DNA from: Promethearchaeota archaeon
GTDB taxonomy: Archaea; Asgardarchaeota; Lokiarchaeia; Sigyniarchaeales; SOKP01
Assembly (NCBI GenBank): GCA_029838195.1
Contig: JALGVJ010000002.1
Coordinates: 32,001-96,000 of the forward strand
Length of the DNA stretch: 64,000 nt
Direction: 5' to 3'
Shown: piece by piece, positions 861 to 60,345 of the stretch
Layout: each line of letters starts with the position of its first letter
How positions within the stretch are numbered: position 1 is the first letter of the stretch
Notes under the pieces: model-generated
What the model was told of the DNA's origin: nothing
The model's input: the letters and a program-made list of their open reading frames with translations, nothing else
Databases searched by the model: none
Translations under genes and position numbers: made by a program

Positions 861-2420
861 TTAAAAACCAGATTTTACTCTTATTTTAATAGCACGCGAT
901 TTTAATACATGAATTATTGCCCCAAAATTCATGGCAAGCACGAGGAACATCCCTCCTAACTTCAAATTAAAACCTAATGAAATGGAGAGAGAGAATGTTC
1001 CTGAAGGTATGTCGGTACTGTACACTAATTTGACTAATAAAAAATAAGAACGGTTTTCTTGAGAATACAACCCCATTTCTTTTATATCTGAATTAATTGT
1101 GAATTGAGAAATTGAATTCCCAAGCAAAATAGGACATCCATAATCGTCTGGTTCCGAGTTAAATAAATATATCTCTGCATCAGCAGATTCAGGCTCTTCT
1201 AATTTAAAAAAATAATGATTCACGCTTAAATTAATTGGCAAGCACAATACATGTTTGTCTGATCCTAATGTAAAATCGATCTCCGTGAAGCTATTGATAT
1301 TTAATGGGGGATTCAATGCATCTAATGCAGCATATCCTTGTACAATCCCCCAACCTTGCACGTTATCTTGAATTGTTAATGGTTCGTAGGTTTTATATGA
1401 AGTTAGTGAGATTATATTTTTAAGTTCTAAAGCAGTTAAATTCCGATTTTTTTCTAACATTAATGCTGCTAATCCAGAAACTAACGGAGTTGAACCTGAG
1501 GTGCCTGAATATGTTTCATATTTTTTTCCATTATTAGAAGTAGTTGCTCCATAAATTTCATGAGCTGGAGCGCATGTGTCTGGCTTGATCATTCCTTCGT
1601 GAGTTGGTCCTTTTCCACTCAAGTAATACATGGTGTTCTCATCTACAATTCCTCCCACGGTTAAGGCAGATTTAGCAGAACCCGGAGCTGAAACGGATCC
1701 AACTCCATCGTCCGAGCCTCCACCTCCTCCATAATTTCCGGCAGCAGCGACCACTAGAATATTTTCTCTTACCAATTGTTCTACAGCATCATTTATTTCA
1801 TTTATCAAGTCTACATAATTTTCGTCATATTCTACTCCAAAACTCATGCTTGCTATTCTAATATTATATTTTTCTTTATTTTGGAGGATCCAATTAATTG
1901 CCTTCTTTAATTTCTCTACGTCAGAAACGATTTCACCATTTTGGTATTTAAAAATTTTTAAAATGACAAATCTTACATTAGGAGCAATTCCTTGATAATT
2001 CTTGCTATTTCCACCCAATATGGATGCAGTCCACGTTCCATGCCATGAAATATCATAAGGATGAGGGGATTCTCCATTTACACTATCGTCATAGAATGCT
2101 CTTATTCGTCTTGCCCAACTAATTGTATTGTCATTAGTAAAGACCTCGTGAATGGCATCAATTCCTGTATCTATCACGGCTACTGTTACCTTATTTCCTG
2201 TTAAATCGTTATTCCAAGTATTTTCCGTTAACTTAATATAATCTTTTGCTTGAAATTGAGAATCCAAATCTAAAGGAGTTGAGAGAACGTTTTTCTTAGA
2301 AGGAATATTAAGATGATTCGAGATATTTTCTTTATTTAAATCAAGATATAAGATAGGCTCTTTCTGGGAATGTTGCACTATAATTATCCCACATGGAAAG
2401 CCCCAAATTATTAATATCAA
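861..2420 (-). CDS. Membrane-anchored S8 subtilisin-like serine peptidase
   Basis: Catalytic triad motifs VIDTG, WHGT and GTSGS; oxyanion motif AAAGN; hydrophobic N- and C-termini. Confidence 0.92.
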   Translation of the reverse strand: MILIIWGFPCGIIIVQHSQKEPILYLDLNKENISNHLNIPSKKNVLSTPLDLDSQFQAKDYIKLTENTWNNDLTGNKVTVAVIDTGIDAIHEVFTNDNTISWARRIRAFYDDSVNGESPHPYDISWHGTWTASILGGNSKNYQGIAPNVRFVILKIFKYQNGEIVSDVEKLKKAINWILQNKEKYNIRIASMSFGVEYDENYVDLINEINDAVEQLVRENILVVAAAGNYGGGGGSDDGVGSVSAPGSAKSALTVGGIVDENTMYYLSGKGPTHEGMIKPDTCAPAHEIYGATTSNNGKKYETYSGTSGSTPLVSGLAALMLEKNRNLTALELKNIISLTSYKTYEPLTIQDNVQGWGIVQGYAALDALNPPLNINSFTEIDFTLGSDKHVLCLPINLSVNHYFFKLEEPESADAEIYLFNSEPDDYGCPILLGNSISQFTINSDIKEMGLYSQENRSYFLLVKLVYSTDIPSGTFSLSISLGFNLKLGGMFLVLAMNFGAIIHVLKSRAIKIRVKSGF

Positions 2421-2521: not shown

Positions 2522-4108
2522 ATGTCTCATAGAAAAAAAGAGCATGTCTTCAAATCACGGTTATTTGCAAGGCAACAACTCATAGAAGGCTGGGACCAAG
2601 AAGTGTTAAATCAAAGTTGTATCTTGATAGCGGGAGTTGGGGCATTGGGATGTGAAATTGCAAAAGATTTTACTTTGATGGGTATTAAAAAATTAATCTT
2701 AATTGATTTGGATACTATTGAAACTTCAAATTTATCCCGACAAATGTTATTTCGTCCTGGAGATGAAGGTAGACCAAAAGCAGAGGTAGCTGCAGAAAGA
2801 TTGAAAGAAATGAATCCTTTCATTGAAATTGACTATTATTTTGAAAAACTCCAAAATATTCCGTTGGATGTGTATGAAGAAGCGGATATAATTGTCGCTG
2901 CATTGGATAATTACAATGCTCGCTTGGATTTGAATAAGCTAGCATTACGCTTGAAAAAACCATTTGTAGAAGGGGGTACAGTAGGTTTTGAAGGTCATGT
3001 TCAAATTGTCATTCCAGAAGGAAGTGGCATTTCCTATGGAAATCGAGAACGAGAAATTGAAAGAGTGGTTAATGAAGAATTATGGAATTTAGATGAAACC
3101 CAATATCCCGATTATTTTAAAGCTCTAAAAAAAATAGAAGAATTGGAAGAAGAAATTGAGAGAATAAAGAGAGAAAAAATTGACCCCGTAAGAGAAGAAA
3201 TTAAAAAGCAAGTTGAAAGTCAATTTGACGATAAACATGCTCCTAAATTATTAAATATTACACCTTGTTATAGATGTCTCGTTCCCATACCCCCTCCCGA
3301 TGATAAATTGATCGCAGCTTGTACGTTAAAAGGATTACCACGAAATAGAAATGATTGTGTTATTAAAGCAGAGGTTAATTTTGAGAAAGAATTTAGCCGA
3401 AAACCGGATTTGAGAAATGATGATGACGTTTTAAAATTAAAAGAATTAGCCCAAGAAGAATTAGAAAAATTAAGAGAACGCGTTTTTGAAGAAAATGTCC
3501 CGCCTGAGAAAAAAAATGCATTAACTGAGGAGGAAATTTTAGAATGGAAGGAAAACATTCGGACCACGTTTGGTCCCGATTTTCAATTTCATGAAATGGA
3601 AAATATTTTAGGAAACAAAATTCCGGCTATTCAATCCGTTAGCTCTATAATTGCCAGCATTCAATCGCAAGAAGTATTAAAATTATTATTTAGAACAAAA
3701 GGTAGAAATATTGGCGACCCCATGTATCCTCCCTATATTAATTATAACGGGGTATATGGGCAGTTTGACATGTTAGACATAATAAAAAGAGAAGATTGTT
3801 TAGCTTGTGGTAAAATAGAAGGGGAAGAGACAATTCATTTAGTAGTTCCTTTTAATGCAGATGTAGGTTATATTTTTAAAGCCTTGCAATTAATTGAGAT
3901 AGATCTTAATCCTGAAGAATGGATGATCACGAATTCAATAACTAAGGAAATTGCATGGCATCCTCTAATTCCTCAGTTTAAAGATCCTACAATTAAACTG
4001 AATTCATTAAATATAAAAAATAATGATATTATACATTTGACGCCCCTTGGAAAAGCCCGAGAGCAATTTGAAATAAAAAAATATAATGCTATTATTTCTT
4101 ACATGTAA
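2522..4108 (+). CDS. Ubiquitin-activating enzyme E1-like protein (ThiF/UBA family)
   Basis: GVGALG, DLDTIETSNLSRQMLF, Zn pairs CYRC and CLAC, catalytic-Cys motif ACTLKGLPR resembling eukaryotic UBA2/UBA3, and a C-terminal extension. Confidence 0.9.
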   Translation: MSHRKKEHVFKSRLFARQQLIEGWDQEVLNQSCILIAGVGALGCEIAKDFTLMGIKKLILIDLDTIETSNLSRQMLFRPGDEGRPKAEVAAERLKEMNPFIEIDYYFEKLQNIPLDVYEEADIIVAALDNYNARLDLNKLALRLKKPFVEGGTVGFEGHVQIVIPEGSGISYGNREREIERVVNEELWNLDETQYPDYFKALKKIEELEEEIERIKREKIDPVREEIKKQVESQFDDKHAPKLLNITPCYRCLVPIPPPDDKLIAACTLKGLPRNRNDCVIKAEVNFEKEFSRKPDLRNDDDVLKLKELAQEELEKLRERVFEENVPPEKKNALTEEEILEWKENIRTTFGPDFQFHEMENILGNKIPAIQSVSSIIASIQSQEVLKLLFRTKGRNIGDPMYPPYINYNGVYGQFDMLDIIKREDCLACGKIEGEETIHLVVPFNADVGYIFKALQLIEIDLNPEEWMITNSITKEIAWHPLIPQFKDPTIKLNSLNIKNNDIIHLTPLGKAREQFEIKKYNAIISYM

Positions 4109-4190: not shown

Positions 4191-4808
4191 CTATTGTCTA
4201 TTTTTCAGTTTTTCTCTGACCATTTCTTTTAACTCTCCAATTAAATGAGATTCTATACCTGCTTTTTCCCCGCAAATCATATCTTTTTGCATGTCTCCGA
4301 AAAAGATCGCTTCAGATTTATCTACCTTTAATTCTTTTAATATTTTCAACAAACCATCTGGTTCGGGTTTCCAATGACGCACATCTTCTCTTCCAACGAT
4401 CATATCAAATTTATTTTCAAGACCCAAGATTTCAAGCGCTTTTTTAATTGTTTTTCTCGTATTTAATGACATGATGGCTAATTTAACATCATCTTTAACG
4501 CAAAATTCCTCTAAGTGGTTAATAAAATATAACGATTCTTTTATCGGCGTGCTATTTTCAATATTTCTAACCTCGTGCTCTTCAATTACTTTAAAAAATT
4601 TTTTTAATAAAGTTTCATCTTGTCTTTCTCTAATGTGCGTTAAACACCTTGAAATACTCGTAAATGAATGTTCTTCGCCATAAATCTCATTTACCATGCG
4701 ACTTAAAGTTCGTTTTAATAATGGCCAATCCACTGCTAATTTAATGAGTGTTCCATCTAAATCAAATATGATTAGTCTTTTGTTTTCTAAAGATAGGGAT
4801 CCCATCAT
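4191..4808 (-). CDS. HAD-superfamily hydrolase (phosphoglycolate phosphatase-like)
   Basis: FDLDGT, KPEPDG and FFGDMQKD motifs. Confidence 0.9.
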   Translation of the reverse strand: MMGSLSLENKRLIIFDLDGTLIKLAVDWPLLKRTLSRMVNEIYGEEHSFTSISRCLTHIRERQDETLLKKFFKVIEEHEVRNIENSTPIKESLYFINHLEEFCVKDDVKLAIMSLNTRKTIKKALEILGLENKFDMIVGREDVRHWKPEPDGLLKILKELKVDKSEAIFFGDMQKDMICGEKAGIESHLIGELKEMVREKLKNRQ

Positions 4809-4925
4809 CCTTAATTCTTCCTAATTTGAAAATATTTTACAAAAAGATATCAAAAAAATAAATAAAATAATGTGTTATATAAAACAAGAGCCTGAACGTA
4901 AATTTTGCGCGTGCATGGTGACTAA

Positions 4926-5466
4926 TTAATCCATTGCGTATTTAGCAGTCCATTTTTTTGCTTTTTCCATGAATTTCTTCTGAGAGCGAAAATATTGTTC
5001 ACCAGCTTCATGATTTAATGGATCTCCAGGATTGAAAAAAGGGGGTTCCATGTGCATCATGCCTTTTAAGGCTTCAATAATATTCGTCAGAGTTTTACTT
5101 GGTGTCCAGCCAGAAGCTCCTGTAGCTGCATCTACTTTGCCAACCAAATCCGGATTGAGCAGATCCAAGCAGATATTTAATTTCCCCGGCGGAATGGAAG
5201 AGTCTATATTTGGATGCCACATTAAGGTAACAGCATATGCATTTCCCCAAATTAGTCAGAATCGGCTAATTTAATGGAGGTTGGAATGGATAATTTGGCG
5301 GAAATTTAATCTCAAATACAAATCGCCCTTTTGCATATGGAGTTCCTTCTTTTCCAATGATTGTTAGTCTCAAATGGTCAATACTTCTCCCCCATGGCTC
5401 CAGAATCACGTATTCATCATCTTTAAATACTTCCAATGCTTCCGTATAATCCGTTTCTTCTCGCAT
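4926..5466 (-). CDS. Ubiquitin-conjugating enzyme E2, split by a 31-nt putative intron (exons 5466..5274 and 5242..4926; 169 aa if spliced)
   Basis: The 5' ORF has GTPYAKGRF..FPPNYPFQPP and the 3' ORF has WHPNI..NICLDLL..WTP. Removing 5243..5273 gives PFQPP-Y-AYAVTL-MWHPN, the canonical 8-residue PP-to-W spacing. Confidence 0.9.
5243..5273 (-). other. Putative 31-nt BHB-type pre-mRNA intron
   Basis: Minus strand reads CUCC AU|U AAAUUAG-(10 nt)-CUAAUUU GGGG AA|A. This gives a 4-bp central helix CUCC/GGGG, a 3-nt bulge and a 7-bp intron helix. The insert contains an in-frame UAG and shifts the frame. Confidence 0.72.
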
Positions 5467-5762
5467 TTTAATATTTCTCCTATATCAATTAATATATGAA
5501 TAACTATCTAGTAATTCTATTAGTTTTTAAAATTTTTGATTTCATAAAATTTTTTATCTTTTGAAATTGATAGAGATCTCTAAGGATTTATCCTATTAAA
5601 GATTATTTATACTAGGAGACATTGAGCATCAATTTTATTAAGACTCATCATGTTTATTTCCTATTCATGTTTTCACCATGGAGCAACTCTTCAATTTATA
5701 AAGATCGAAAAAAATATATTCAGTCGATTATTTTTGAAATCAATGAAATAATGGAAAAAATT

Positions 5763-5928
5763 CCCCTCTTAACTCAGACTGGTAGAGTGCTCGGCTGTAG
5801 ATATTAAAAATCGCGCAAGAAGGATCAAGCATCCAATGATCATGCGTCAGCAGGCACCGAGATGTCGCCGGATCAAAATGGGTGTTTTAAATTAATAAAA
5901 ACCCATGATAAGCCGGCAGAGGGGACCA
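5763..5928 (+). tRNA. tRNA-Tyr(GTA) with two introns (5801..5855 at 37/38; 5878..5911 at 59/60) and encoded CCA
   Basis: Acceptor stem CCCCTCT/AGAGGGG with C1-G72, A73 and CCA; D stem ACTC/GAGT; anticodon stem CTCGG/CCGAG with GTA at 5797..5799; T stem GCCGG/CCGGC; BHB motifs at both introns; T-tract downstream. Confidence 0.93.
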
Positions 5929-5942
5929 TTTTCTTTTTTTTG
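5929..5942 (+). terminator. Oligo-T archaeal terminator after tRNA-Tyr
   Basis: TTTTCTTTTTTTTT lies immediately after the CCA. Confidence 0.6.
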
Positions 5943-6293
5943 ATTTTATTTTAGAATTGTCATTTTTTTATAAGTATTAAAATCGTTTATGCTACGAAAT
6001 ATTTTAAGGTTTTTTTCATTGAATTAGTTATTAAATTTTAGACGTCTAAAGATATGGAAAAATTTTAGATGAGGTATTGAACTAATTATCGTCATTAAAA
6101 TATCAGAACTTTTTTTAATTTTTTTTAATTTGATTTATTTTCTCTTATTATATAACATCCAAAATTTAATTTTAATGTAGTCTTTCAGTAAATTGCCTCA
6201 TAATTCCCCCAATTCTTTAAAACATGCCAAATGCAAAAATAATTAATGAGAACACGGAAAAAAAATTAAGTTTATCAATAATTTCCTTATATA

Positions 6294-7580
6294 TTACATT
6301 TCTTCTTTAAACTCTAACTTCGAAAACAGAAATGCTATTATAAGAGGTATTCCAGCTAAACTTACATAATCTCTTATTAATACATTATAAGTACTAATGA
6401 ATAGATAAAAAAATAAAAAAAATAGAAAAGCTGAAGCGATTATTAAAAAAAGGTGAAATTTATTTTTACATTGAATAAGCCCTAAAATAATAGTAATGAA
6501 TATTATAAAAATAGTAATAATAATACAGTTTGTCATTCCATAATTAAGGGTACTCTTTAAGATAGTTACGATGATATTACCTGGAAATATTAATTCATCA
6601 TCTCGCCAATTACTCATTTTACAATTATGCCCTATTGGTGCTACATTGATAAACCAATCTATATCCATTAACATAAATGGTAATATCCACGCTAGGAAAC
6701 AAGAGATTGAAATTATCGAAAGAATAATTGTATTTTTAAATCCATAAATTTTTAAAATATATAAAAAAACAATTACCCCGATCAACCAAAGATGCATTCT
6801 TGCTGCTAAAAGAGAACCAAATAGTATTGAAAAACTTAATACTTTTTTATTTATGGGTAATGGTTCATGTGGGGTAAGTTTAATATATTTGAAAAGAATT
6901 TTTTGTTCAGGAATTTTATCTGGAAGAATAAATAAACACAAGCAAAAAAGAATCTGAATTGTTAAAAGGTCACTTTGCATTACCATTTCTAAAAAGAAAA
7001 AATCAGAAAATGTAATAAATGAGATGATTGGCAAAATTATTTTATCATTTTCCGAGTCAATAAATTTATAAAAAATAAAAATATAAAAGAAAACTATTGT
7101 AATTAATGCCATAAAAAAAGTATGTCCATTTGTAATTAAATAAATTGGCATGTAAAGAAAATAAGAAAAAGGTAAATTACTGGGTCTTAATCCTAAAGAG
7201 CTCATGGTATAATAAGGATTTTCACCCCTAAAAATAGCTTCAATACAATTCCTAATTTCTTCATCTCTGTCAGATTTGGTCCAATAAACAAATGGATTTC
7301 CAACGACGAACATAATAATACAAGCTATAGATAGTAAAATTGCGAAATAAATAACCCTTTTTTTTATACCTGCTAAATATAAAATAATAGAACAAATCAT
7401 TAAGGATAAACCTAAAAAAGTAAAAGAAAAGAGATTTCTAGTAACAAATTTGCTACTAACCAAAGAGATTAAAAATGGTATAAAAATTAAAATTAATTCC
7501 GTAGGAGTTAATTCTTTCTTTAAAGCTTTAAATTTATCGCTATTTTTGATCTTTGTAAAGTAAATTTTTAAATCTCTCAT
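6294..7580 (-). CDS. Polytopic membrane protein, probable GT-C fold glycosyltransferase
   Basis: About 10 TM segments, a loop SDRDE...GENPY...NLPF typical of lipid-linked sugar transferases, and position next to a GT2/GtrA gene. Confidence 0.6.
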   Translation of the reverse strand: MRDLKIYFTKIKNSDKFKALKKELTPTELILIFIPFLISLVSSKFVTRNLFSFTFLGLSLMICSIILYLAGIKKRVIYFAILLSIACIIMFVVGNPFVYWTKSDRDEEIRNCIEAIFRGENPYYTMSSLGLRPSNLPFSYFLYMPIYLITNGHTFFMALITIVFFYIFIFYKFIDSENDKIILPIISFITFSDFFFLEMVMQSDLLTIQILFCLCLFILPDKIPEQKILFKYIKLTPHEPLPINKKVLSFSILFGSLLAARMHLWLIGVIVFLYILKIYGFKNTIILSIISISCFLAWILPFMLMDIDWFINVAPIGHNCKMSNWRDDELIFPGNIIVTILKSTLNYGMTNCIIITIFIIFITIILGLIQCKNKFHLFLIIASAFLFFLFFYLFISTYNVLIRDYVSLAGIPLIIAFLFSKLEFKEEM

Positions 7581-21321: not shown

Positions 21322-22250
21322 TGATAGAAATGAAGGATAGAAGCAGAATGGTCGTAAAAAAGGAAGAAGATGATTATCTCCATGATCCCGATACCACTCT
21401 TAAATGGAGAGAATCTTATTATTTTAATTGGGTGGATCTAAAAAATAAAATTTCCGGCTTCTCTACAATTGGAATCGTACCAAATGAAAAAAAAAGAGAA
21501 TTGGTATTTTTTCTCTTTACTGAAGATAAGAGAGAGGCATATTATCGAGAGCCTCCCTTGGAAAAGTATGATAAAAATATTGACATGATGCTCCAAGACA
21601 AGAAACTTGCCTATAAATTAATTAAACCCTTGAAGACGTGGGATATCATGTTTAAATCTCATAAATTAGAATTTAAAATTAGATTTGATGCACGTTATCC
21701 TCATCACTATTTCGGAGTAGGCTCCTCCTCTTCATGGCACCAACATTTTGAAGCCTCAGGCAATATTAAAGGAGCATTAACGTATAAAAATGAAAATACC
21801 ATCAATATTAACGGATATGGCCAAAGAGATAAAAGTTGGGGATATCGCGACTGGCATAAATTCCAAAAATGGTTTGCCGGGCATTTTCAATTTGAAAACT
21901 GGACGTGTGGATTCCGAAAAGATTATATCCATGACAAGGTGGACCTCTCAGGATATATCGCTGACGCAAAAGGAAGTTATCGGCTCTCCCAACTCGATAT
22001 TAATGTTCAATATAATAATGATCAATACAAAAGCCCTCAAATAACGACCTACTTCATCAAAGATGAGAATGGCAGAGAGTTTCACATCGAAGCCCGCTTA
22101 ATTCAAAAACATTCATTCATTCGGTTTGCCAGAGATTTTCCCGGCGGTTATACCGAATTATTTGAACAAATGGTAATCATGAAAAATTTAGATACTGGAG
22201 AAATTGGTTCAGGAATGGCTGAACAACTGCGAACTATCCGTCAAAATTGA
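21318..22250 (+). CDS. Lipocalin/AttH-like (tocopherol-cyclase-like) beta-barrel protein
   Basis: WRESYYFNW, HFEASG and GQRDKSWG.RDW. Confidence 0.65.
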   Translation: MMIEMKDRSRMVVKKEEDDYLHDPDTTLKWRESYYFNWVDLKNKISGFSTIGIVPNEKKRELVFFLFTEDKREAYYREPPLEKYDKNIDMMLQDKKLAYKLIKPLKTWDIMFKSHKLEFKIRFDARYPHHYFGVGSSSSWHQHFEASGNIKGALTYKNENTININGYGQRDKSWGYRDWHKFQKWFAGHFQFENWTCGFRKDYIHDKVDLSGYIADAKGSYRLSQLDINVQYNNDQYKSPQITTYFIKDENGREFHIEARLIQKHSFIRFARDFPGGYTELFEQMVIMKNLDTGEIGSGMAEQLRTIRQN

Positions 22251-22413
22251 AATTTTTTTTACCTTATTCTCGTTATATTATTCTAGCACAAATACCGATT
22301 GCATTTTCCGATTATTTTACTTATCATGATAAATTACAAAATTTAAATATTTAAAAATTAAAATCTAAGTATATAATAAATAATTTAAAAATCATTATCA
22401 AGGTAAAAAAACT

Positions 22414-59832: not shown

Positions 59833-60345
59833 TTACAGCACTTCAAGAATTGCATCAATATCTAACCAGCCCTTTTTGGCATGAATGATCTTACCCTTTT
59901 CATCAATGACAAATTGGCCTGGTTCTTGTTTTTCATAACCCTCATATTCTCCATGCTCAATTCCAAGCTTTTTAGCCTCTTTTAACCGCTTGGGAACTTT
60001 CGCAATGGTCTTAATCCCCATCATGCCTAAGCCATACTGTGTATAAAGCTCTTCTTTTGGAGAAAAAATAACGGGAAAATCCACATTTCTCTCTTCAATA
60101 AATTTACGTGCCACCTTTTCTCCAGATTGCGTAACGTATAATATCGTTGCTCCTTTATTTTTTATCTCATCTTGGCGTTCTAATAAAATATTCCAGTCCA
60201 TTTGGCAGATTGGACATCCAAAATATCTCGAAAAGATCAAAACTATCTTTTTATTTCCAATTAATTTTTCCAAGTCCACTAGTCCCTTGTTATAGGAAGT
60301 CAATTTAAACCGGGGAGCATCGGCTCCCTCTTTTATATCTCCCAT
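59833..60345 (-). CDS. Peroxiredoxin-like (AhpC/TSA) redoxin
   Basis: APRFKL, RYFGCPIC and PGQFVIDEKG. Confidence 0.88.
   Translation of the reverse strand: MGDIKEGADAPRFKLTSYNKGLVDLEKLIGNKKIVLIFSRYFGCPICQMDWNILLERQDEIKNKGATILYVTQSGEKVARKFIEERNVDFPVIFSPKEELYTQYGLGMMGIKTIAKVPKRLKEAKKLGIEHGEYEGYEKQEPGQFVIDEKGKIIHAKKGWLDIDAILEVL

What the first reader, a model, noticed from the sequence alone, without database searches (positions are those of the whole stretch)
5243..5273. Candidate tRNA-type (BHB) intron inside the mRNA of an Asgard ubiquitin-conjugating E2 gene
Seen: the E2 is broken into two ORFs in different frames. Between the PP codons (cct cca) and AYAVTLMWHPN lie 34 nt where E2 spacing (PP-x8-WHPN) needs one codon, so 31 nt are surplus. 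The minus-strand RNA folds as CUCC-[AUU]-AAAUUAG-loop-CUAAUUU-GGGG-[AAA]. Known: the archaeal splicing endonuclease EndA cuts after the second nucleotide of each 3-nt bulge, relaxed motifs lacking the outer helix are accepted by some EndA types, and crenarchaeal cbf5 has such an mRNA intron. Applying that rule removes exactly 31 nt and gives in-frame ...FQPP-Y-AYAVTLMWHPN (169 aa). The alternative pairing register would remove 29 nt and fail. Both halves look intact, which argues against decay. Inference: E2 expression depends on EndA/RtcB splicing, possibly as a regulatory switch reminiscent of the short frameshifting XBP1/HAC1 introns. Caveat: the exon-exon outer helix is not evident.
Basis: partly seen in the sequence, partly recalled or inferred. 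Interest (0 to 1): 0.95.

Follow-up and report, generated by a model that had tools for sequence, protein, structure and literature searches.

The report
tRNA-type mini-intron in Asgard E2 gene
The ubiquitin-conjugating enzyme (E2) gene of this Asgard archaeon is split by a 31-base insert shaped like the introns archaea cut out of tRNAs; relatives carry such inserts at seven places in the same gene, so its mRNA almost certainly has to be cut and re-joined, which published work confirms for only one archaeal protein gene (cbf5).

Summary
The E2 gene (window 5466-4926, minus strand) is broken by 31 nt at 5273-5243. Removing them gives a 169-aa E2 with the same PP-Y-AYAV junction as about 100 uninterrupted orthologs.

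The intron reading is strongly supported by comparison, but it was not seen in RNA, because no RNA run holds this DNA. Evidence:
- In the same family, 16 of 114 genomes with E2 carry 22 inserts of 29-39 nt at seven sites, up to three per gene.
- All 22 restore the ORF when cut after the second nucleotide of each 3-nt bulge.
- 20 of 22 have a perfect 4-bp central helix in exactly that register, against 2.6% at shifted registers.
- Helices covary, including exon against intron.
- Intron-bearing alleles are under strong purifying selection on both sides of the insert.
- The genome encodes EndA (a crenarchaeal-type alpha subunit plus paralogs) and RtcB.
- Elp3 in the same genome is a second case.

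The outer exon-exon helix is missing, so the motif is the relaxed HBh' type. Nothing supports the XBP1/HAC1-like regulatory switch, and the patchy distribution argues against a conserved one.

This scan has already noted such mini-introns many times on other Asgard DNA, in this genome too. In the papers I could search, only cbf5 is confirmed.

The parts
5274..5466 (-). E2 exon 1: ATG at 5466 to the T at 5274, which is the first base of the split Tyr codon. Encodes residues 1-64 plus one third of Tyr65.
   Evidence: (UQ_con 22-62).
5243..5273 (-). 31-nt mini-intron (U AAAUUAG-loop10-CUAAUUU GGGG AA). It contains the in-frame UAG (5268-5266) and, in the downstream frame, UGA (5258-5256).
   Evidence: The boundaries equal the gap against about 100 intronless orthologs and the intronless relative in run X2.
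4926..5242 (-). E2 exon 2: AT of the Tyr codon, then AYAVTLMWHPN..., the catalytic Cys (NICLDLL), and the stop at 4928-4926.
   Evidence: UQ_con 68-139. Purifying selection downstream of the intron.
5276..5279 (-). Central helix H, exon strand (CUCC, inside the Pro-Pro codons).
   Evidence: Pairs with GGGG 5248-5245 (C-G, U-G, C-G, C-G). In G001, G113, G118a and G130 the partner is GGAG (U-A).
5273..5275 (-). 5' bulge AUU; the predicted cut is between 5274 and 5273.
   Evidence: Cut rule as stated in PMC2738675.
5266..5272 (-). Inner helix h', 5' arm (AAAUUAG).
   Evidence: 7 bp with 5255-5249. Identical in G001 although synonymous sites are saturated. 5 of 7 pairs show two-sided changes across the six site-A introns.
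5249..5255 (-). Inner helix h', 3' arm (CUAAUUU).
5245..5248 (-). Central helix H', intron strand (GGGG).
5242..5244 (-). 3' bulge AAA, not closed by an outer helix; the predicted cut is between 5243 and 5242.
   Evidence: outer helix 0 of 5 pairs at site A.

Best explanation
The 31 nt at 5273-5243 are a bulge-helix-bulge (tRNA-type) mini-intron in the E2 pre-mRNA. The transcript folds so that four exon nucleotides (CUCC, in the Pro-Pro codons) pair with GGGG near the 3' end of the insert. That 4-bp helix is flanked by a 3-nt bulge (AUU), closed on its other side by a 7-bp hairpin inside the insert, and by AAA on the other strand. The archaeal splicing endonuclease EndA cuts after the second nucleotide of each bulge. 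RtcB joins the exons, rebuilding the Tyr codon U|AU, and only then can the full 169-aa E2 with its HPN motif and catalytic Cys be translated. What is shown: the sequence geometry, the exact match of the predicted cuts to the ortholog gap, covariation, selection on both exons, and the presence of the enzymes. What is inferred: the cutting and joining themselves. The intron belongs to a population of about 30-nt introns that have been gained and lost repeatedly at seven or more positions of this gene within one Asgard family, and that also occur in other genes (Elp3 here).
For: (1) About 100 orthologs are uninterrupted 510-nt genes with one codon (TAY) where G000 has 34 nt. (2) 22 inserts of 29-39 nt in 17 alleles from 16 genomes lie at seven sites. 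Applying the one rule 'cut after bulge nucleotide 2' restores an ORF collinear with the orthologs in every allele: 169 aa in the 15 complete ones, and 140 and 141 aa in two alleles read only in part. (3) The 4-bp central helix is perfect in 20 of 22 at exactly that register, against 2.6% of shifted registers. The chance of the full motif at a given position and length in this genome is about 4e-4 (391,829 hits over about 9.7e8 trials). (4) Covariation: at site C, 96.6% of cells are paired against 15-47% when slid, 6 of 10 pairs have two-sided changes, and 0 of 500 shuffles reach the score. This includes exon-intron compensation in H (AUGU/GCAU, ACGU/GCGU, AUAU/GUGU, ACAU/GUGU). At site A, 90.9% are paired, 5 pairs are two-sided, and 0 of 500 shuffles reach the score. 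(5) Selection: G000 and G001 both carry the intron and differ by 76.5 synonymous against 10.5 non-synonymous changes. Downstream of the intron the counts are 48.5 against 5.5. Other intron-bearing pairs are similar. (6) The stems of the G000 and G001 introns are identical and the loop differs by an indel (31 against 30 nt), yet each length restores the frame. (7) At sites A, B', C, E and F a codon is rebuilt from both exons (T|AT, G|AA, G|AG, AT|G, G|AA), as expected for RNA splicing. (8) The genome encodes an EndA most like the crenarchaeal catalytic alpha subunits (3p1z_B, 3ajv_B, 2cv8), a second full-length paralog, a short third one, and RtcB. Asgard EndA is reported as the (alpha-beta)2 type with the L1 loop that allows relaxed motifs (PMC5829648). 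(9) A second gene, Elp3, has a 31-nt insert of the same design at a point where 28 of 30 relatives are continuous.
Against: Excision was not observed, because no RNA run was available. The outer exon-exon helix is absent at site A (0 of 5 pairs), so the 3' cut site lies in an unclosed single strand. The G000 hairpin is no more stable than shuffled sequence (z = -0.22), and the BHB fold is 1.3 kcal/mol above the MFE, which uses a different register. One of the 22 inserts (site E in G118a) has only 1 of 4 central-helix pairs, and one (site A in G146) has 3 of 4. My genome-wide scans for further cases showed no excess over shifted-cut decoys.
Confidence: 0.88

Rival explanations
1. Same splicing mechanism, but used as a regulated switch. 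Under this reading splicing of the E2 mRNA is conditional, as with XBP1/HAC1, and controls when the ubiquitin-like system is active.
For: The unspliced mRNA cannot give active E2 because the catalytic Cys is in exon 2. The stems are more conserved between G000 and G001 than synonymous sites are.
Against: 98 of 114 family genomes with E2 have no intron in it. Occupied sites differ between very close alleles: A, A+B', A+E+F, C or none within one g2 clade. An unrelated gene, Elp3, has the same kind of insert. Stem conservation is what any spliced intron needs. No IRE1-type KEN domain was found, but that search had no positive control.
Confidence: 0.07
2. Translational bypassing (T4 gene 60 type). 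The ribosome takes off at AAU (5271-5269) before the UAG, skips the hairpin and lands on AAU (5243-5241).
For: In G000 there are matched AAU codons, a stop directly after the first one, and a hairpin that starts at the take-off site. At site B a GAA...GAA pair would give the same product as splicing.
Against: In G000 the product would be PP-LN-AYAV, one residue longer than in about 100 orthologs, where the spacing is invariant. At sites A, B', C, E and F a codon has to be rebuilt from both sides of the insert, which hopping cannot do. Hopping does not explain the 4-bp exon-intron helix, its register or its covariation.
Confidence: 0.02
3. Broken gene: the insert is a small mobile or slipped DNA element that has inactivated E2, which is now decaying. 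A paralogous E2 exists on contig C26.
For: There is a frameshift plus in-frame stops. A 39%-identical E2 paralog exists. Insert presence is patchy among relatives.
Against: Both halves are intact. pN is 0.02-0.03 against pS of 0.73-0.74 between the two intron-bearing species, also downstream of the insert. No other copy of the insert exists in the genome. The same design is kept at seven sites with compensatory changes.
Confidence: 0.02
4. The insert is removed from RNA, but by a nuclease other than EndA that recognises the hairpin, with RtcB or another ligase sealing the exons.
For: The outer helix is missing at site A. Cutting by EndA was not tested.
Against: The geometry that is conserved and covaries is exactly the one EndA measures: 3-nt bulges, a 4-bp spacer, and a cut after bulge nucleotide 2. 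The neighbouring tRNA-Tyr has two introns that rely on the same enzyme.
Confidence: 0.03

Closest known systems
BHB intron in the cbf5 pre-mRNA of Crenarchaeota (Desulfurococcales, Sulfolobales; Watanabe 2002, Yoshinari 2006, Yokobori 2009 = PMC2738675)
   Same: A short intron inside a protein-coding sequence, mostly with an unconventional (relaxed) BHB motif. It is cut between the 2nd and 3rd bulge residues by a hetero-oligomeric splicing endonuclease. It is patchy among relatives, showing gain and loss.
   Different: A different phylum (Asgard) and a different gene (a eukaryote-type E2). cbf5 has one site, whereas E2 has seven sites within 510 nt and up to three introns per allele. The size class is uniform at about 30 nt. 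Splicing is confirmed by cDNA for cbf5 and is not observed here.
[quoted passage not shown]
   Same: The same motif, the same enzymes, repeated lineage-specific gains, and a preference for sites that can form the BHB. The tRNA-Tyr next to E2 itself has two introns.
   Different: The host RNA is an mRNA, so there is no tRNA body to help recognition. The exon half of the central helix is made of codons, so it covaries under coding constraint, as in the synonymous CAU to CAC change matched by GCAU to GCGU.
XBP1/HAC1 unconventional mRNA splicing (IRE1 plus RtcB or Trl1)
   Same: A short, frame-changing intron is removed from an mRNA without a spliceosome, and the exons are joined by a tRNA ligase (RtcB in animals).
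   Different: There the cut sites lie in twin 7-nt loops recognised by IRE1, the splicing is stress-regulated, and the unspliced form encodes a different C-terminus. Here the motif is a BHB, no IRE1 KEN domain was found (no positive control), and nothing suggests regulation.
Intron in the 5' UTR of a Haloferax volcanii mRNA cut by EndA (PMC7714728; cited by earlier scan notes, my look-up of it failed)
   Same: An EndA substrate outside tRNA and rRNA.
   Different: It is reported as a UTR element and not as an interruption of a coding sequence. I could not read the details.

Membership tests
Archaeal BHB (EndA-type) intron | Two 3-nt bulges on opposite strands, separated by a 4-bp helix | tested here: met
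   G000: CUCC/GGGG with bulges AUU and AAA. The central helix is 4 of 4 in 20 of 22 E2 inserts at the splice register, against 2.6% at shifted registers.
Archaeal BHB (EndA-type) intron | Cuts between the 2nd and 3rd nucleotide of each bulge give the functional RNA | tested here: met
   The rule removes 31 nt and gives PP-Y-AYAV, as in the orthologs. It restores a collinear ORF in all 17 alleles with 22 inserts (169 aa in the 15 complete ones). The rule is as stated in PMC2738675.
Archaeal BHB (EndA-type) intron | Flanking helices: inner (h') and outer exon-exon (h), the strict hBHBh' form | tested here: not met
   The inner helix is present (7 bp, covarying). The outer helix has 0 of 5 pairs at site A and 2 bp at site C. 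This is therefore the relaxed HBh' form and not the strict motif.
Archaeal BHB (EndA-type) intron | Host has a splicing endonuclease able to cut relaxed motifs, and an RNA ligase | tested here: met
   EndA of 202 aa, closest to the crenarchaeal alpha subunits (3p1z_B at 5.9e-36), a second 199-aa paralog, a 106-aa third, and RtcB. The subunit type and the L1 loop are taken from PMC5829648 and were not verified residue by residue here.
Archaeal BHB (EndA-type) intron | Helices supported by compensatory changes | tested here: met
   6 and 5 pairs with two-sided changes, and 0 of 500 shuffles reach the score.
Archaeal BHB (EndA-type) intron | Excision and exon ligation seen in RNA (spliced junction, circular intron) | not testable with these tools
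   No RNA run is listed for this DNA. Only DNA contigs could be laid.
XBP1/HAC1-type regulated splicing | IRE1 kinase/RNase and twin stem-loops with 7-nt loops at the cut sites | tested here: not met
   The cut sites lie in 3-nt bulges around a 4-bp helix, not in 7-nt loops. PF06479 was not found in G000, which is 96.6% complete, but the search had no positive control.
T4 gene 60-type translational bypass | Matched take-off and landing codons that give the conserved protein | tested here: not met
   AAU...AAU exists in G000 but would add one residue compared with all orthologs. Sites A, B', C, E and F need a codon rebuilt across the gap.

The most novel reading that the evidence does not exclude
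The roughly 30-nt inserts are a self-spreading intron population. In this reading excised (circular) introns re-enter other RNAs at sites that can offer the 4-nt helix partner, by reversal of the EndA/RtcB reaction, and become fixed in DNA. Eukaryote-signature genes such as E2 would then act as repeated targets, giving a working example of intron gain in protein-coding genes in the closest archaeal relatives of eukaryotes. The recurrence of the same pentaloop (AUCUC) in inserts at three different sites (A, B', C), including two sites in one genome, would be a trace of such copying.
Probability: 0.1. Interest if true: 0.95.

Novelty: new variant of a known kind. Interest (0 to 1): 0.8.

Why it matters
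The papers I could search confirm EndA-type splicing of a coding sequence for one archaeal gene only (cbf5, in Crenarchaeota), and PMC2738675 says so explicitly. Here the same mechanism is inferred for a eukaryote-signature gene in Asgard archaea. The gain and loss is dynamic in a way cbf5 does not show: seven sites in 510 nt, up to three introns per allele, and close relatives that differ in which sites are occupied.

- **Annotation:** such genes are called as two fragments or as pseudogenes. The neighbouring tRNA was also missed by both ARAGORN and Rfam.
- **Evolution:** these lineages tolerate, and keep acquiring, introns in mRNAs, and removing them depends on enzymes shared with eukaryotic tRNA and XBP1 splicing.
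- **Testability:** pairs of near-identical alleles with and without a given intron are available, so the route of intron gain can be studied.

The scan has met this phenomenon repeatedly on other DNA. This case adds the multi-site picture and the exon-intron covariation, not the first sighting.

Tried and rejected
1. **RNA evidence.** The look-up of sequencing runs listed no RNA holder, only two DNA metagenome runs, so expression and splicing could not be examined.
2. **Genome-wide scans of G000.** I searched for the motif H(4 bp)/bulge(3)/stem and asked whether excision fuses two ORFs. In four versions the true cut gave no more hits than shifted-cut decoys, for example 137 against 122-154, and 17 against 5-22. 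Gene boundaries swamp the signal and my filters miss short exons, so no genome-wide count can be given. Only E2 and Elp3 came out as convincing. Candidates on C39 (GTPase and Roadblock), C35 and C49 were ordinary neighbouring genes.
3. **Folding energy alone.** The hairpin is not more stable than shuffles.
4. **Rfam.** No family matched over 4850-5550 or 5400-6300 at E up to 1.
5. **ARAGORN.** It found no tRNA in the window, even in intron mode.
6. **Other copies.** No other copy of the insert plus its flanks exists in the genome, so it is not a repeated element at the level of sequence.
7. **IRE1 KEN domain (PF06479).** No match, but the control genomes also had none, so this is uninformative.
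8. **Plain frameshifting.** A +1 or -1 frameshift is rejected. The upstream frame ends at UAG 5268-5266 and the downstream frame opens only after UGA 5258-5256, so there is no overlap in which to shift.
9. **PMC7714728.** My look-up failed on a term-format error and I did not repeat it.

Full report
**What is in the window.** On the minus strand, an ORF from 5466 to 5266 encodes 66 residues ending ...FQPPLN*. A second frame, open from 5255, reads AYAVTLMWHPN... to the stop at 4928-4926. Pfam places the first piece on UQ_con positions 22-62 and the second on positions 68-139, so together they make one ubiquitin-conjugating enzyme (E2) with about one codon missing between them. The PP codons end at 5275 and AYAV starts at 5240, which leaves 34 nt where one codon is expected. 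A plain +1 or -1 frameshift is impossible: the upstream frame closes at UAG 5268-5266, before the downstream frame opens after UGA 5258-5256.

**Is the DNA real?** A Logan contig of run X1 covers 5129-5500 without a single difference. That run may be the source sample. A contig from a relative in run X2 matches up to 5242 and then continues with the intronless sequence ...CCUCCUU, so it places the gap boundary at 5242|5243. The same kind of insert occurs in 16 separately assembled genomes (see below), so an assembly artefact is excluded.

**Orthologs.** Searching 41 and then 135 genomes of the same order and family found the E2 ortholog in 114 family genomes. In nearly all of them it is an uninterrupted 510-nt gene with exactly one codon, TAY (Tyr), between PP and AYAV. 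Seventeen alleles in 16 genomes are interrupted. Aligning them to an intronless reference gave 22 inserts of 29-39 nt, mostly 29-32. The positions, in reference nucleotides, are:
- Sites B and B', at about 169-171: G011, G056, G113
- Site D, at 220, inside the WHPN motif: G146
- Site E, at 380: G055, G118a
- Site C, at 388: G003, G008, G012, G015, G059, G060, G118b, G128, G146
- Site F, at 436: G118a

G146 and one G118 allele carry three inserts each, and G113 carries two.

**One rule explains them all.** I enumerated every place in each allele that can form a 4-bp helix, a 3-nt bulge, a stem, the helix partner and a second 3-nt bulge. I then asked which excisions, cutting after the second nucleotide of each bulge, restore a full-length ORF. 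For the ten single-insert alleles this automatic search recovered excisions giving a 169-aa protein collinear with the orthologs. For one further single-insert allele (G055) and the three multi-insert alleles, where the search failed or mis-assigned, I placed the cuts by hand with the same rule. Those alleles too gave ORFs collinear with the orthologs: 169 aa for the two complete ones, and 140 and 141 aa for the two read only in part.

At exactly the register the rule requires, the central helix is 4 of 4 in 20 inserts, 3 of 4 in one and 1 of 4 in one. Over all registers shifted by up to 6 nt, only 2.6% are 4 of 4. In the whole genome the full motif occurs at about 4e-4 per position and length, so three or more independent sites matching it at pre-defined boundaries is far beyond chance. 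PMC2738675 states the same cut rule for the cbf5 intron.

**Covariation.**
- *Site C (nine sequences):* 96.6% of cells pair at the proposed register, against 15-47% when the partner is slid. Six of ten pairs show changes on both sides, and no shuffle of 500 reaches the observed score. The exon strand of the central helix also covaries with the intron strand (AUGU/GCAU, ACGU/GCGU, AUAU/GUGU, ACAU/GUGU). One of these is a synonymous His codon change (CAU to CAC) matched by A to G in the intron.
- *Site A (six sequences):* 90.9% pair, five pairs have two-sided changes, and 0 of 500 shuffles reach the score.
- *G000 against G001:* the stems are identical, GGGG becomes GGAG (U-G to U-A), and the loop differs by an indel. 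The inserts are therefore 31 and 30 nt, and each length is the one that restores the frame.

**Not a pseudogene.** G000 and G001 both carry the site-A intron. Their synonymous sites are saturated (pS 0.73) while pN is 0.026. The differences are 76.5 synonymous against 10.5 non-synonymous, and downstream of the intron 48.5 against 5.5. Other intron-bearing pairs behave the same way. The part of the gene that could not be translated without removing the insert is therefore under strong purifying selection.

**Rivals.** Translational bypass from AAU to AAU is formally possible in G000. It would give PP-LN-AYAV, one residue longer than every ortholog. At sites A, B', C, E and F a codon has to be rebuilt from both exons, which hopping cannot do. 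No copy of the insert occurs elsewhere in the genome, and Rfam has no match.

**Enzymes.** G000 encodes:
- a 202-aa EndA with both domains, closest to the catalytic alpha subunits of Aeropyrum, Sulfolobus and Pyrobaculum
- a second full-length paralog of 199 aa
- a 106-aa third EndA-family ORF
- RtcB

PMC5829648 reports that Asgard archaea have the (alpha-beta)2 type with the L1 loop, which is associated with cutting relaxed motifs. That matters because the outer exon-exon helix is absent at site A (0 of 5 pairs) and only 2 bp long at site C, so the motif is the relaxed HBh' form. The BHB conformation is not the MFE in G000 (+1.3 kcal/mol), and over the 22 inserts it lies 0-4 kcal/mol above the MFE, with a median of 1.7.

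**Distribution.** On the gene tree the intron-bearing alleles are scattered. Within one well-supported g2 clade the alleles carry A+B', none, A, A+E+F, C and C. G055 (site E) is sister to an intronless allele, and G000/G001 (site A) are sister to intronless g7. This means repeated gain and/or loss. No IRE1-type domain was found, though that search lacked a positive control.

**A second gene.** My strict scan of G000 recovered E2 and one other convincing case, Elp3 on contig C23. A 31-nt insert, GUGG-[AC|U]-stem-CCAU-[AA|A], lies between ...GHDVD and KIELIVMGGTF.... ELP3_N and the start of the radical-SAM domain lie on one side. Radical_SAM profile positions 67-158 and Radical_SAM_C lie on the other. 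28 of 30 relatives, including the same-genus G001, are continuous there. G006 has a different 31-nt insert at the same point. The scans as a whole showed no excess over decoys, so they give no count.

**Literature and earlier notes.** In the searchable library, confirmed splicing of an archaeal coding sequence is limited to cbf5 (PMC2738675, which says other cases were only predicted). A 2026 preprint describes heavily interrupted Asgard tRNA genes with repeated gains but does not mention mRNAs. No paper on Asgard mRNA BHB introns was found.

Within this scan the phenomenon has been noted many times on other Asgard DNA and in other genes of this genome. One note reports that an E2 intron with the GUAG|A border (my site C) is removed in environmental RNA from another genome. 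I did not test those notes. They are leads, not evidence.

**Verdict.** The insert is almost certainly an EndA/RtcB-spliced mini-intron (confidence 0.88), with excision itself still unobserved for this DNA. It is a new variant of a known kind: cbf5-type mRNA splicing, but in Asgard archaea, in a eukaryote-signature gene, at many sites and with rapid turnover.

Noticed in passing
G000 contig C23, about 59892-59922 (locus L052, about 1393-1423, minus strand): Elp3 (ELP3_N, radical SAM, Radical_SAM_C) is split by a 31-nt BHB insert, GUGG-[AC|U]...CCAU-[AA|A], between GHDVD and KIELIVMGGTF. 28 of 30 relatives are continuous there, including the same-genus G001. G006 has a different 31-nt insert at the same point.
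   Followed up: yes
window 5763-5928 (+): A tRNA-Tyr (anticodon GTA) lies divergent to E2 and is interrupted twice, after position 37 and in the T-loop. The acceptor stem CCCCTCT/AGAGGGG plus ACCA and the anticodon stem CTCGG/CCGAG can be read directly. ARAGORN (also in intron mode) and Rfam both miss it.
   Followed up: partly
loci L040, L032, L045 (E2 inserts of G113 sites A and B', G008 site C, G060 site C): The same pentaloop ATCTC closes the hairpin of 4 of the 22 inserts, at three different sites and twice within one gene (G113). It is unexplained; it could be shared ancestry or a preferred loop.
   Followed up: partly
L048 (G146) and L049 (G118, contig C91): Two alleles carry three mini-introns each in a 510-nt gene (sites A+D+C and A+E+F). 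Site D lies inside the WHPN motif (TGG CAT|CCA).
   Followed up: yes
L049 against L050 (G118 contigs C91 and C185): One MAG holds two E2 alleles with different intron sets (A+E+F and C). With 8% contamination this may be two strains in one bin rather than a duplication.
   Followed up: no
L049:558-600 (G118a, site E): This insert keeps the hairpin and restores the frame, but has only 1 of 4 central-helix pairs (CAUG against CUGC). It may use a shifted 3-bp helix (GCA/UGC), be cut as a bulge-helix-loop, or be decaying.
   Followed up: partly
window 2522-4108 (+), 4191-4808 (-), 4926-5466 (-): Gene context: a 528-aa ThiF-family E1-like protein, a HAD-family hydrolase, then E2. I did not look for a ubiquitin-like gene or a RING gene in the window.
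   Followed up: no
G000 contig C53, about 22033-22353 (L038:1492-1812, minus strand): A third, short (106 aa) ORF matches only part of the EndA catalytic domain (29.4 bits). It may be a fragment, a degenerate structural subunit, or itself a split gene.
   Followed up: no
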